This document shows, one piece after another, positions 51,137 to 54,100 of a stretch of 64,000 nucleotides of DNA (position 1 is the stretch's first letter; every line of letters begins with the position of its first letter). Made by a program: the position numbers. This DNA is from Microcaecilia unicolor. Lineage: Eukaryota. The stretch spans positions 62,370,339 to 62,434,338 of the forward strand of contig NC_044034.1 in assembly GCF_901765095.1 (NCBI RefSeq), in the 5' to 3' direction.

Positions 51137-54100
51137 GTGAGTCTGGGTGCGAGTGTGTCTTTGAGAGAGAGAGTGTGTGTGTGTGTGTTAGAATGAGAGT
51201 GTGTGCAAGTGCGTATGTGATACACAGTGTGAGAGAGAGAGAGTGTGTTTCACACAGATACAGTGTGTGCGAGAGAGATACAGTGTGTGCGAGAGAGAGT
51301 GTGTGTGAGTCACAGTCTCTCTGTGAGACTGAGTGTATGAGACCAAGAGAGTGTGTGACTGTGTGACACATAGTGAATGCCTCAGCACACAGAGTGTGTG
51401 AGAGCGAGAGAGAAAGACATTGACTGTGTGAGAAAAAGAGTGTGTGTGTGTGTGACAGAGATACCCCTCCCTCCCTCCCTCCCTCTCTCTCTCTCTCTCT
51501 CTCTGGTGTCTGAGCGTTACTGTGCAGGACACTGAGCTCTGGCTATGCTTCAAGGAACTGACCAATCCTATTTAATAGAATGCACCTCCAACATTCTGAA
51601 GCCGAGAAATCTCATGTGGTTGGTCACTTCTGCTTGTGACGAACCCGGAAGTACGTGATGTCAATTCAGGAGATGGATACAGAGAGCAGGAATGCCTCAG
51701 CCATGCAGTCAGCTTCAGAATCATAGATGCCAGGGTTGCGGTAATCCCGCCCAATTGGGCGGGTTTTTGGGCGCGGCTGCGGGAGATTTCTCGTCGCTGC
51801 GTGTTGCGTGATTGGGCGGTTTTGCGGCGTGTAATTGGGCGTTTTTCGCCGCGTTGCTGCGGCAACCGCCAATCAGCTGCCAAACCTGCCCCTTCTTATG
51901 TCTGTGCAGTGCGGCGAAATTTTCCACTTTCGTTCGGCAATTGAATTGGCTCGTCGTCGCCTGACTGACTCGCCTCGGCTTCTTCTTCGCTTCGCTCAGC
52001 TGAGCTGCAGTGCCGCCGATCCCGGAAGAGCAGAAGAAAAGAGAAGGAGAGAGCAGCCCAGCCAGCTCATATCCAGCCAGCTTAGTATGTAAGTAGTATA
52101 AAATTGCACTTCTGAGATAGGCTGGTTTAATGGGGGGGGGGGGGGGGGGCACCTAGGTACCATGTGGATTTGTTTTAAATCCACATGGTACCTAGGTGCC
52201 CCTGTGCCAATCTATGTGCGTCCGTCCATTGATGATTTGGCTGGTTTAATAGGGTGGGGGGCACCTAGGTACCATGTGGATTTGTTTTAAATCCACATGG
52301 TACCTAGGTGCCCCTGTGCTAATCTATGTGCGTCCGTCCATGATGATTTGGCTGGTTTAATAGGGTGGGGGGCACCTAGGTACCATGTGGATTTGTTTTA
52401 AATCCACATGGTACCTAGGTGCCCCCCACCCTATCAAACCAGCCAAATCATCAATGGATGGATGCATATAGATTGGCACAGGGGCACCTAGGTACCATGT
52501 GGATTTGTTTTAAATCCACATGGTACCTAGGTGCCCCCCCCCCCACCCTATTAAACCAGCCAAATCATCATGGACGGCCATACATGGATTGTGGATTGCT
52601 ACTTGCAGTGCTGTTGCTATATTGTAATCGCACTTCCCTTTTTTAATTTTTATAGCGCTACAAGGCATACGCAGCGCTGTGGACCATAGACAAAAAGACA
52701 GTCCCTGCTGATAGTTTTCTACTTCCCGACCGTTCATATTCATATTATAATGGGAAAGTGGGCATCTTATACCAAGAAATACTGCAAGAGCTGGGAGAAA
52801 GAGGCACTCTTAAAAGACTGGGTAAGGAGTGTGCCAGGAGACGACAACAAACCATATTGTCGTTTTTGCAAAGCTGAGATACGTGCACATCATCATGATT
52901 TAGTGAACCATGCCTATACAGCCAAACATAAGAAGAATGCAGCGCCATTTTCAAGTGCTAGGTCATTATTTGATATGGGCTGCCAGTCTATCACTATCGA
53001 TAAATCGACCAAGACAGCGGAGCTGACGTTGGCGGCACACGTTGCGTGCCATTCCAGTATCGCAATGATCGATCACCTAGGCGAGGTTATGAAGAAGTTT
53101 TCGGGCAAAGACATAGCTATACACCACACGAAATGTTCTGCACTCATCAAGAATGTCCTTGGGCCTGCAGTCCACCAAGAATTGATTTCGGACCTGTGCA
53201 CAAATGACACGTCTTATTCCTTGATCATCGATGAAAGCACCAATATCGGCCTGGAGAAGCAGCTGTGTGTGATGGTGCGCTACTACAGCAGTTCCTTGAA
53301 GTGTATTACCACTGCATTTCTAGGAATATTAGCCCTTGAGACTGGTACTGCAGAAGGAATATTCAATGCCATAACCAATTTTCTTCAATCAAATAATCTT
53401 CAAATAGGCAAATGCATAGGCTTAGCAACTGATGGCTGTAGCACCATGTGTGGAAGAAATAATTCAGTAATAACACGGTTCCGTTAATTGTCCCCCAACA
53501 TTGTACACATAAAGTGTATTTGCCATTCAATTCAGCTGAGTTCTTCGCATGCGCTGAAGGTGCTGCCAAGGAACATTGAATTCATGGTTGCTGAGACCTA
53601 TAACTGGTTCTGCCATAGTACTGTTCGCCAGCAGAAATACAAACAGATATATCAGTGCATTAATGTTGGTCAAGAACCACTAAAGATCCTGAAGTTGTCA
53701 GACACTCGCTGGCTGTCCATAGCTGCTTGTGTTCAGCGTGTGCTTGATCAATATGATGAACTGAAGCTTCACTTCCAGATAGCGAAGGATGAGACACGCT
53801 GCTACACCGCTGACCACCTCTACCAGATGTACAACACACCACAAAACAAGCTGTACTTTACATTTTTGAGGCCCATACTGCAGGAAGTCAACCGAGTGAA
53901 CAAGCTGTTTCAGTCTGATAAAGCGAGCCCTGTCCGTTTGCTCGATGAGTTGATGACATTGTATCGCACCATGCTGCTGCGGCTTGTGAGACCGACCACA
54001 TTCACATCGTGGGGCGCAACTCTCATGTATGATTTGGAAGACAGGTCTAAGCATCTACCGCTGGCAGCGATGAACTTTGGTATCGAATTCCAGTTGTCGC

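What the first reader, a model, noticed from the sequence alone, without database searches (positions are those of the whole stretch)
52095..52600. Four perfectly identical 51-bp palindromes in a tandem-then-inverted ~112-bp array between a CpG island and a hAT transposase ORF
The palindrome gcacctaggtaccatgtggatttgttttaaatccacatggtacctaggtgc contains paired E-box-like CATGTG/CACATG, GGTACC and CCTAGG. The unit flanks differ between copies, with CpG-to-TpG changes such as ggacggacgcacatag versus ggatggatgcatatag, while the palindrome cores stay 100% identical. That points to constraint or conversion acting on the palindrome itself. Its position 150 bp upstream of the hAT ATG suggests subterminal transposase-binding repeats, or a structured regulatory or insulator element in a first intron.
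Basis: seen in the sequence. Interest (0 to 1): 0.6.

Follow-up and report, generated by a model that had tools for sequence, protein, structure and literature searches.

The report
Palindromic minisatellite inside dead hAT transposon
The four identical hairpin-forming repeats are real, but they sit inside the non-coding leader of a decayed hAT "cut-and-paste" transposon in a repeat-rich, probably amphibian genome, and they look like an ordinary, recently formed internal repeat of a mobile element rather than a regulatory device.

Summary
Four identical cores lie at 52146-52202, 52258-52314, 52369-52425 and 52481-52537. Identity extends to 57 bp (26-bp arms, 5-nt centre GTTTT). They are separated by a 55-bp spacer, forward twice and inverted twice.

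The context is reinterpreted. The "CpG island" is the 5' end of the hAT element itself: a terminal inverted repeat at about 51722 plus a cluster of TTGGGCG/TTGCGG subterminal motifs shared with six related hAT elements. The array therefore lies inside the element, about 390 bp from its 5' end. The transposase ORF is a pseudogene (3 stops, 2 frameshifts). None of the relatives carries such an array.

The case for constraint on the core is weak:
- The cores contain no CpG.
- 3 of 9 spacer substitutions are CpG transitions.
- 8 of the 9 fall in the 27-bp CpG-bearing half of the spacer.

Best reading: a young minisatellite internal to the transposon, shaped by palindrome-driven slippage, template switching and gene conversion. 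A nested foldback/MITE insertion, as with Angel in Tol2, is the main rival. Genome-wide copy number could not be tested. Interest is low.

The parts
51722..51745 (+). 5' terminal inverted repeat of the hAT element. CATAGATGCCAG... aligns without gaps to the relatives' CAGTGTTGCCAG. The alternative reading is CAGGGTTGC at 51731 with a 10-bp deletion.
   Evidence: MAFFT alignment with the 5' ends of four related elements; 5'-end comparison with L001, L003-L008; blastn-short hits of 51745-51766 to the 5' ends of L003, L004, L006-8.
51743..51935 (+). hAT 5' subterminal motif cluster: ATTGGGCGG, TTGCGG and TGCGG(C)GAAATTT. It includes the conserved 18-bp palindrome CCCGCCCAATTGGGCGGG at 51746-51763.
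   Evidence: A PWM built only from relatives places 4 of its 6 best hits in the whole window here: 51753, 51743(-), 51810, 51833.
51722..52088 (+). It ends at a GTAAGT donor-like site at 52089.
   Evidence: GC 0.58 and CpG o/e 1.1 for 51731-52091; sequence.
52089..52655 (+). CpG-poor block (o/e 0.19) bounded by GTAAGT (52089) and a polypyrimidine tract plus AG (52654-52655). Candidate 5'-UTR intron, or inserted or expanded DNA. It contains the array.
   Evidence: Composition contrast with both flanks; sequence. The splice-site reading is inference only.
52113..52145 (+). Partial leftmost spacer (Y0: GGCTGGTTTAAT) followed by a G18 run.
   Evidence: (family D5).
52146..52202 (.). Hairpin core P1 (57 bp, 26-bp arms, centre GTTTT).
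   Evidence: (I12).
52203..52257 (+). Spacer S1 = X (27 bp, carries 2 CpG) + Y (28 bp, carries GATTTGGCTGGTTT).
52258..52314 (.). Hairpin core P2.
   Evidence: (I13).
52315..52368 (+). Spacer S2 (forward; one C>T change and a 1-bp deletion relative to S1).
52369..52425 (.). Hairpin core P3, the centre of the large (roughly 385-nt) palindrome. Perfect arms extend to 35 bp here.
   Evidence: (I1, I5).
52426..52480 (-). Spacer S3, inverted. Both CpGs are lost (CpG>CpA), plus 2 other transitions.
52481..52537 (.). Hairpin core P4. Its centre GTTTT has the same orientation as in P1-P3 although it lies in the inverted half.
   Evidence: (I14).
52538..52592 (-). Spacer S4, inverted. It has an 11-base poly-C run (G on the other strand), its X part is the most diverged, and homology fades at about 52592.
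52750..54771 (+). Decayed hAT transposase gene (DUF4371 / FAM200-ZBED5-like / hAT dimerisation type). It is colinear with a 657-aa caecilian homologue and carries 3 in-frame stops and 2 frameshifts.
   Evidence: (E = 3e-219, 70% identity).
55958..55969 (+). Candidate 3' terminal inverted repeat, CTGATAACACTG (10/12 to the family consensus CTGGCAACACTG). Weak: no matching 8-bp target-site duplication and no 3' motif cluster.
   Evidence: motif scan.

Best explanation
The array is a short palindromic minisatellite generated locally inside the 5' non-coding leader of a dead hAT transposon copy.

Shown:
- The hAT 5' end is at about 51722, and its own subterminal motif cluster makes up the 'CpG island'.
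- The array (about 52113-52592) lies 390 bp inside that end and 158 bp before the ATG of a pseudogenised transposase.
- Related elements lack the array.
- The cores are CpG-free, and nearly all changes fall in the CpG-bearing X half of the spacer.

Inferred:
- A 112-bp unit (hairpin core + X + Y) was amplified by replication slippage or unequal exchange.
- Every spacer is bracketed by 26-bp arms in inverted orientation (the right arm of one core and the left arm of the next). Template switching or recombination between those arms flipped two spacers without flipping the cores.
- The same exchanges, plus intra-hairpin correction, keep the eight arms identical.
- No function is required. The structure is a by-product of palindrome instability in transposon DNA.
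For: Position inside the hAT:
- Relatives share the terminus CAGTGTTGCCAG...CCCGCCCAATTGGGC with window 51722-51763.
- A PWM built from relatives places 4 of its top 6 window hits at 51743-51833.
- Relatives have only 127-563 bp between terminus and ATG, with no palindromic array. The window has 1028 bp.

Dead copy: 3 stops and 2 frameshifts.

Local, young repeat:
- There are no other copies in the 64-kb window.
- Y + cores carry 1 substitution in 340 non-CpG sites.
- The homology of the last unit fades gradually into the right flank.

Mundane basis of core identity:
- The cores contain no CpG.
- 3 of 9 substitutions are CpG transitions, and 8 of 9 lie in X.

Spacer-only flipping:
- All four centres read GTTTT on the + strand.
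- The 1-bp indel and the site-6 C/T pair S1 with S3 and S2 with S4, a direct rather than mirror relationship.

Literature: tandem or inverted repeats inside DNA transposons and MITEs are well documented (PMC9659126; bioRxiv 10.64898/2026.01.12.699174 on the Tol2 IIRs).
Against: - Only one locus could be examined, so I cannot exclude that every copy of this hAT family carries the array, or that the unit is dispersed elsewhere in the genome.
- The block 52089-52655 is compositionally foreign to its CpG-rich flanks (o/e 0.19 versus 1.0-1.1). That fits an insertion at least as well as in-situ growth.
- After removing CpG sites, the cores are still less variable than the spacers (p = 0.009, or about 0.06 without the edge unit). 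Some homogenising force or selection is acting.
- Recombination between 26-bp arms only 55 bp apart is mechanically awkward. The flipping mechanism is inferred, not shown.
Confidence: 0.55

Rival explanations
1. Nested insertion of a separate non-autonomous palindromic element (foldback- or MITE-like) into the hAT leader, possibly followed by local rearrangement. This is what is reported for the Angel MITE that became the 302/303-bp internal inverted repeats of Tol2.
For: - The CpG-poor block has CpG-rich hAT sequence on both sides.
- The array is absent from all relatives examined.
- The long inverted arms are built of subrepeats, as in foldback elements.
- There is a precedent in a hAT element: the Tol2 IIRs are absent from lamprey Tel2 and flanked by TTAA (bioRxiv 10.64898/2026.01.12.699174).
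- An imperfect 10-bp direct repeat, ATTGCACTTC/ATCGCACTTC, brackets the block at 52103 and 52627.
Against: - I found no terminal inverted repeats at the block's ends and no convincing target-site duplication. About 0.1 such 10-bp repeats are expected by chance, and the inverted arms do not reach it.
- The arms are unequal (2.5 versus 1.5 units).
- There is no second copy in 64 kb.
- The Y half resembles the hAT family's own subterminal motif, which points to the host element as the source.
Confidence: 0.22
2. The array is a functional cis-element of this hAT lineage: extra transposase-binding or architectural sites in the 5' subterminal region, kept identical by selection.
For: - It lies inside the element near the 5' end.
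- Each unit carries GATTTGGCTGGTTT, which scores 10.9 bits against the relatives' subterminal-motif PWM. The chance for a random 112-bp unit is about 0.014.
- Y + core are almost invariant while X varies (p = 0.0014).
Against: - The real subterminal motif cluster is elsewhere, at 51743-51935.
- The array starts 390 bp from the terminus. The motif clusters seen in the relatives lie within roughly the first 100-260 bp of each end.
- The motif core is imperfect (TTTGGC rather than TTGGGC).
- There is no counterpart at the 3' side.
- Six relatives lack it.
- The palindrome has no similarity to the terminal repeat.
- This copy is dead, so present-day selection on it is unlikely.
Confidence: 0.1
3. 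Regulatory, insulator or hairpin-RNA element in the first intron of a host (domesticated hAT) gene driven by a CpG-island promoter.
For: - A GTAAGT donor-like site at 52089 and a polypyrimidine tract plus AG at 52655 bracket the block.
- The upstream sequence meets CpG-island criteria.
- A roughly 190-bp stem would be a plausible Dicer substrate if transcribed.
Against: - The downstream ORF is a pseudogene.
- The CpG island is the transposon terminus.
- Rfam gives only sub-threshold generic hairpin matches; the best is 119.5 bits against a gathering score of 245.
- No expression data are available.
Confidence: 0.05
4. Assembly or polishing artefact: a hairpin-rich repeat with long G runs was mis-joined or homogenised by the assembler.
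For: - Perfect identity of the four cores.
- G18 and C11 homopolymer runs next to them.
- An unusual direct/inverted junction.
Against: - The spacers retain copy-specific substitutions and an indel, so the units were resolved individually.
- The core does not match the common sequencing-adapter sequences I can recall (own knowledge, not tested).
- This cannot be tested without reads.
Confidence: 0.05

Closest known systems
[quoted passage not shown]
   Same: Both are long inverted repeats that form a hairpin, located in an internal non-coding part of a hAT transposon. Both are absent from close relatives; lamprey Tel2 lacks the IIRs. That the Tol2 IIRs lie in intron 1 is my own recollection and was not verified here.
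   Different: The Tol2 IIRs are two simple arms of about 300 bp from one nested MITE, flanked by a TTAA duplication and present in all Tol2 copies. Here the arms are made of 112-bp tandem units, each with its own 57-bp hairpin. No duplication is seen, and only one dead copy could be examined.
Foldback-type elements with arms built of tandem subrepeats (Drosophila FB; Tetris of D. virilis, source of the TIR-220 satellite)
   Same: The inverted arms are composed of tandemly repeated units, and the structure is prone to expansion into arrays (PMC9659126).
   Different: There is no evidence of mobility, terminal repeats reaching the ends, a target-site duplication or multiple copies. The arms are unequal and the whole structure is under 500 bp.
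MITE-derived tandem arrays in amphibians and molluscs (Xstir from the Xmix MITE in Xenopus; miDNA4; DTC84 in Donax)
   Same: These are short tandem arrays of roughly 80-160-bp units associated with a class II element (PMC9659126, PMC3879986). That the units themselves carry inverted repeats is my own recollection of Xstir and was not checked here.
   Different: The unit sequence differs, and no sequence match was found in the literature. There are only four units, embedded in an autonomous-type hAT rather than a MITE.
hAT subterminal transposase-binding repeats (for example AAACGG in Ac, AAGTA in Tol2; own knowledge)
   Same: The element does have such repeats, and the Y half of each array unit contains one near-match to them.
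   Different: The true repeats of this family are the 6-14-bp TTGGGC(T/G)-type motifs at 51743-51935. These are short, numerous, close to the terminus and shared with relatives. The 57-bp palindromes meet none of those criteria.

Membership tests
hAT superfamily transposon (the host element) | Transposase homologous to hAT transposases (RNase-H-like/DUF4371 core plus C-terminal hAT dimerisation region) | tested here: met
   The best hit is 70% identical to a 657-aa caecilian protein, E = 3e-219, and the hits carry PF14291, PF27073 and PF05699. The ORF is colinear from M1 to residue 652. This copy's own Pfam scores are just below cut-off (20.3 versus 21.4 bits) because of decay.
hAT superfamily transposon (the host element) | Short terminal inverted repeats at both ends | tested here: inconclusive
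   The 5' end is clear by alignment to relatives. The 3' candidate CTGATAACACTG at 55958-55969 matches the consensus at 10/12, but about 0.13 such matches are expected by chance.
hAT superfamily transposon (the host element) | 8-bp target-site duplication | tested here: not met
   The flanks TTCAGAAT (or ATAGATGC) and ACCTTTTG do not match. Relative L001 has a perfect 8-bp duplication, GTGATGTG. The window copy is probably decayed or rearranged at its 3' side.
hAT subterminal transposase-binding repeats (the array as such) | Short motif reiterated close to both termini and shared with related elements | tested here: not met
   The shared motif is TTGGGC(T/G)..., clustered at 51743-51935. The palindromic core is absent from all relatives and from the 3' side. 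Only the Y half has a near-match (10.9 bits, p about 0.014).
hAT subterminal transposase-binding repeats (the array as such) | Bound by the element's transposase | not testable with these tools
   This needs EMSA or footprinting with a reconstructed transposase.
Nested MITE / internal inverted repeats of the Tol2-Angel type | Insertion delimited by its own terminal repeats and a target-site duplication | tested here: not met
   There are no terminal repeats at the block ends. The only bracketing repeat is an imperfect 10-bp direct repeat at 52103/52627, at chance level, and it is not adjacent to the inverted arms (own calculation).
Nested MITE / internal inverted repeats of the Tol2-Angel type | Free copies of the same element dispersed in the genome | not testable with these tools
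   The source genome is not searchable here. There are no copies in the window, none in the metagenome or viral collections and no translated matches.
Minisatellite / tandem repeat internal to a transposable element | Head-to-tail copies of a 10-200-bp unit with high identity, confined to one locus within a transposable element | tested here: met
   TRF reports period 112, 3.6 copies, score 554. Family D3 has spacing 112/111/112. The array lies inside the hAT leader. Confinement to one locus is shown only for the 64-kb window.
CpG-island promoter plus first-intron regulatory element of a host gene | Intact downstream gene and a CpG island independent of the transposable element | tested here: not met
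   The ORF has 3 stops and 2 frameshifts. The CpG-rich segment is the hAT terminus and motif cluster.
Known structured RNA / miRNA family (Rfam) | Score at or above the family gathering threshold | tested here: not met
   All 45 matches are below gathering. The best is MIR2646, 119.5 versus 245 bits. The matches are generic long-hairpin hits.

The most novel reading that the evidence does not exclude
The hairpin array is a lineage-wide module of this hAT family, kept identical by selection rather than by youth. One version: an intronic long hairpin (roughly 190-bp stem) is transcribed with the transposase pre-mRNA and processed into small RNAs that self-limit the element. Another version: a set of spacers that are actively invertible between identical hairpins by a structure-specific recombination reaction.
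Probability: 0.05. Interest if true: 0.5.

Novelty: new member of a known kind. Interest (0 to 1): 0.18.

Why it matters
As it stands, the value is mainly in annotation. It shows that a seeming CpG-island promoter, first intron and gene is in fact one decayed hAT copy. It also defines that family's terminus and subterminal motif (CAGTGTTGCCAG...CCCGCCCAATTGGGC, TTGGGCT-type repeats), which are shared with elements from very different animals.

The array is a compact example of how palindromes inside transposons expand, invert and stay homogeneous. If a genome-wide search showed it to be a conserved feature of all family copies, it would be only the second hAT lineage, after Tol2, reported to carry internal inverted repeats. 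It would then be worth testing for small-RNA production or transposase binding.

Tried and rejected
1. TIR + TSD scan of the window. This gave CAGTGCGGCGAAATTT (51907) paired with 56643, with a 7/8 duplication. About 1.3 such pairs are expected by chance, and local alignment scored no better than shuffles. Position 51907 is better read as another TGCGG(C)GAAATTT subterminal motif.
2. CAGTGCTGTTGC at 52606 as the 5' terminus, which would have put the array just outside the element. It has no partner and no duplication, and the alignment to relatives supersedes it.
3. CAGGGTTGCGG at 51731 paired with GTGGGTTGCGATAA (reverse complement) at 56790. This is a chance-level match with no duplication.
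4. Exact-pattern scans for the palindrome in metagenome and viral contig collections: 0 hits.
5. Protein-guided search for closer hAT copies in metagenomes: only fragments at 65-82% identity, with no informative 5' ends.
6. Exact look-up of nine ORFs (eight across the array, plus the 245-aa hAT ORF) and a translated search with concatenated array peptides: nothing. This is a weak negative, because the window's own hAT ORF is not in that collection either.
7. Full-text search for four sub-strings of the unit: 0 papers.
8. Rfam: only sub-threshold generic hairpin hits.
9. Nucleotide comparison of the array, leader and 3' region with nine related loci: only the terminal palindromic motif matches.
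10. A single fold-back inverted duplication centred on P3. Rejected as the sole event, because the centre of P4 is not flipped and the informative spacer sites pair S1 with S3 and S2 with S4.
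Full report
OBSERVATION

It occurs nowhere else in the window, even with three mismatches allowed, and none is expected by chance. Identity extends to 57 bp: GGGGCACCTAGGTACCATGTGGATTT-GTTTT-AAATCCACATGGTACCTAGGTGCCCC. That is 26-bp perfect arms around an asymmetric 5-nt centre, so it is a hairpin-forming inverted repeat rather than a strict palindrome.

Start-to-start spacing is 112/111/112 bp. Between the cores lies a 55-bp spacer, which I split into two halves:
- X: TGTGCCAATCTATGTGCGTCCGTCCAT, carrying two CpG.
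- Y: TGATGATTTGGCTGGTTTAATAGGGTGG.

The layout is Y0-P1-S1-P2-S2-P3-S3(inverted)-P4-S4(inverted, fading out near 52592). As a single strand the region folds into a roughly 385-nt hairpin centred on P3, plus a separate P1 hairpin (-238 kcal/mol, z = -33). The window holds only two other perfect hairpins with arms of 12 bp or more.

WHAT SURROUNDS IT

The window is a mosaic of transposable elements:
- a gammaretrovirus-like provirus,
- a pogo/Tigger DDE fragment,
- LINE reverse-transcriptase fragments,
- DIRS-like fragments.

The best protein hits are to caecilians. The hAT protein is 70% identical to a Microcaecilia unicolor protein, and the retroviral Pol is 72% identical to a Rhinatrema bivittatum protein. 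A large, repeat-rich amphibian genome is therefore likely.

The ORF starting at 52750 is colinear with a full-length 657-aa hAT-type protein from residue 1 to 652. It carries three in-frame stops and two frameshifts. It is a pseudogene, not a working or domesticated gene.

WHERE THE hAT ELEMENT STARTS

I fetched related elements through their proteins.
- L001 is a compact 2262-bp element. Its termini are CAGTGTTGCCAG / CTGGCAACACTA, it has a perfect 8-bp duplication, and its ATG lies 127 bp from the terminus.
- L003, L004 (the soft coral Xenia) and L006-8 begin CA(G/A)TGTTGCCAG...GGTTTTCCCGCCCAATTGGGCT. L005's contig starts just inside the terminus, at CCCAATTGGGCT. All these relatives carry reiterated TTGGGCT-type and TTGCGG motifs at their ends.

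The window sequence 51722-51763, CATAGATGCCAGGGTTGCGGTAATCCCGCCCAATTGGGCGGG, aligns without gaps to these termini. It is followed by the same kind of motif cluster.

A position weight matrix built only from the relatives' motifs places four of its six best hits in the entire window at 51743-51833, counting both strands.

The array lies inside the element, about 390 bp from its 5' end and 158 bp before the ATG. The 3' end is not secure. CTGATAACACTG at 55958-55969 matches the family consensus at 10 of 12 positions, but there is no matching target-site duplication and no 3' motif cluster.

IS THE ARRAY A FEATURE OF THE FAMILY?

In the relatives, the distance from terminus to ATG is 127-563 bp, and none contains a comparable tandem or inverted repeat. 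The window has 1028 bp.

No part of the array matches any related locus. The block 52089-52655 is CpG-poor (o/e 0.19), while both flanks are CpG-rich (1.0-1.1). It is bracketed by a GTAAGT donor-like site and a polypyrimidine tract plus AG. It could therefore sit in a 5'-UTR intron, but that is inference only.

The array is thus extra DNA relative to the clade: either grown in place or inserted.

IS THE CORE UNDER CONSTRAINT?

I aligned the four spacers in a common orientation and found nine substitutions.
- Three are CpG transitions.
- Eight of the nine lie in X, the half that carries the only CpGs.
- Y has one substitution.
- The four cores have none.

The cores contain no CpG at all. After removing CpG positions, the Fisher tests give:
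- spacer versus core: 6/196 versus 0/228 (p = 0.009, or about 0.06 if the diverged edge unit is left out);
- X versus Y + core: 5/84 versus 1/340 (p = 0.0014).

The contrast is therefore not "core versus flanks". It is a variable, CpG-bearing X against an almost invariant Y + core. Youth of the array, absence of hypermutable sites in the core and some homogenisation are sufficient. With four copies at one locus, the evidence for selection is weak.

The "paired E-boxes" and the KpnI/AvrII-like sites follow automatically from inverted arms and carry no independent weight.

HOW THE LAYOUT AROSE

A single fold-back (inverted duplication) centred on P3 would make P4 the mirror image of P2, with centre AAAAC. 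It would also make S3 a copy of S2, and S4 a copy of S1.

Instead, all four centres read GTTTT on the + strand. The two informative spacer characters (C/T at site 6, and the 1-bp indel CCATTGATG versus CCATGATG) pair S1 with S3 and S2 with S4.

The simplest reading has two steps. First, a two-unit block was duplicated directly. Second, spacers were inverted without the cores. Each spacer is flanked by the right arm of one core and the left arm of the next, which are 26-bp perfect inverted repeats. Exchange or template switching between them flips only the spacer.

Conversion of the cores after an inversion is the alternative. Both are inferred. Either process would also homogenise the arms.

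The Y half contains GATTTGGCTGGTTT, which scores 10.9 bits with the relatives' motif matrix. About eight background positions in 128,000 score as well, which gives roughly 0.014 for a random 112-bp unit. The unit may therefore derive from hAT subterminal sequence.

This does not make the array the family's transposase-binding repeats. Those are the short motifs at 51743-51935.

COMPARISON WITH KNOWN THINGS

The closest precedent is Tol2. This hAT element carries 302/303-bp internal inverted repeats attributed to a nested Angel MITE. They are flanked by TTAA, absent from the lamprey relative Tel2, and described as unique among hAT elements (bioRxiv 10.64898/2026.01.12.699174).

Foldback elements such as Tetris have arms made of tandem units that can seed satellites. 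MITE-derived arrays such as Xstir/Xmix in Xenopus show the same link between transposons and tandem repeats (PMC9659126, PMC3879986).

The present array resembles all of these. It fails the insertion criteria (own terminal repeats, target-site duplication), and its copy number cannot be tested here. Rfam gives only sub-threshold generic hairpin matches.

LIMITS

The decisive test is a search of the source genome for the 57-mer and the unit, and I could not run it. The following searches all returned nothing:
- pattern scans of metagenome and viral collections;
- a protein-guided metagenome scan;
- exact ORF look-ups and a translated search with array peptides;
- a literature string search.

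These are weak negatives, because the source genome does not seem to be represented in those collections. Mis-assembly cannot be excluded without reads, although the copy-specific spacer differences argue against collapse.

VERDICT

The feature is real but ordinary: a young palindromic minisatellite inside the leader of a dead hAT copy (confidence 0.55). A nested foldback/MITE insertion is the main rival (0.22). A functional hAT cis-element (0.10), an intronic regulatory or hairpin-RNA element (0.05) and an assembly artefact (0.05) trail behind. It is a new member of a known kind, and interest is low.

Noticed in passing
window 28672-34612 (- strand): Gammaretrovirus-like endogenous provirus. 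It has Gag_MA + Gag_p30 (33059-34612), protease-RT-RNaseH (30731-32446, a 572-aa open frame) and two env-like ORFs without Pfam hits (28672-30418). The best Pol hit is Rhinatrema bivittatum at 72%.
   Followed up: partly
window 29761-29814: A second perfect hairpin (25-bp arms, 4-nt loop): CACTTAGCCTTACAAAGTTCCATAG-TAAC-CTATGGAACTTTGTAAGGCTAAGTG. It lies inside the env-like ORF 29711-30418 of the provirus.
   Followed up: no
window 51746-51763; L003 3612-3626; L004 3461-3482; L006-L008 5' ends: The palindromic motif CCCGCCCAATTGGGC(G/T) lies next to the hAT 5' terminus. The window carries the full 18-bp palindrome CCCGCCCAATTGGGCGGG. The motif is conserved between this vertebrate copy and relatives from very different sources, including the soft coral Xenia. 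This suggests a widely distributed, possibly horizontally moving hAT clade with a defined terminal architecture.
   Followed up: partly
L001/L002 (ENA ERZ21830300 ctg693721c): A complete 2262-bp hAT with a perfect 8-bp target duplication recurs every 5199 bp along a 30.8-kb contig. It is either a tandem macro-repeat that captured a transposon with its flank, or an assembly artefact.
   Followed up: no
window 36270-36995 (-); 11955-12554 (+); 44993-45631 (-); 3644-4570 (-); 49656-50345 (-): Other transposable-element fragments: pogo/Tigger DDE_1 (E = 1.7e-42); two LINE-type RT fragments; and two DIRS-like fragments, identified by eye with a weak RVT_1 hit for one and no Pfam hit for the other.
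   Followed up: partly
window 51000-51505 and 42653-43800: A long GA/GT-rich low-complexity tract lies immediately upstream of the hAT. A Pro/Ser-rich repetitive region is open in several frames on both strands.
   Followed up: no
window 51640-51660: An ETS-like CCGGAAGT followed by ACGTGA lies about 70 bp outside the hAT 5' terminus. It could belong to a host promoter or to another repeat. It is not part of the hAT by alignment.
   Followed up: no
window 52129-52146 and 52534-52544: The homopolymer runs next to the cores vary in length between units (G18, G6, G6 / C6, C11). This is the main source of length differences in the array and a likely site of sequencing error.
   Followed up: no
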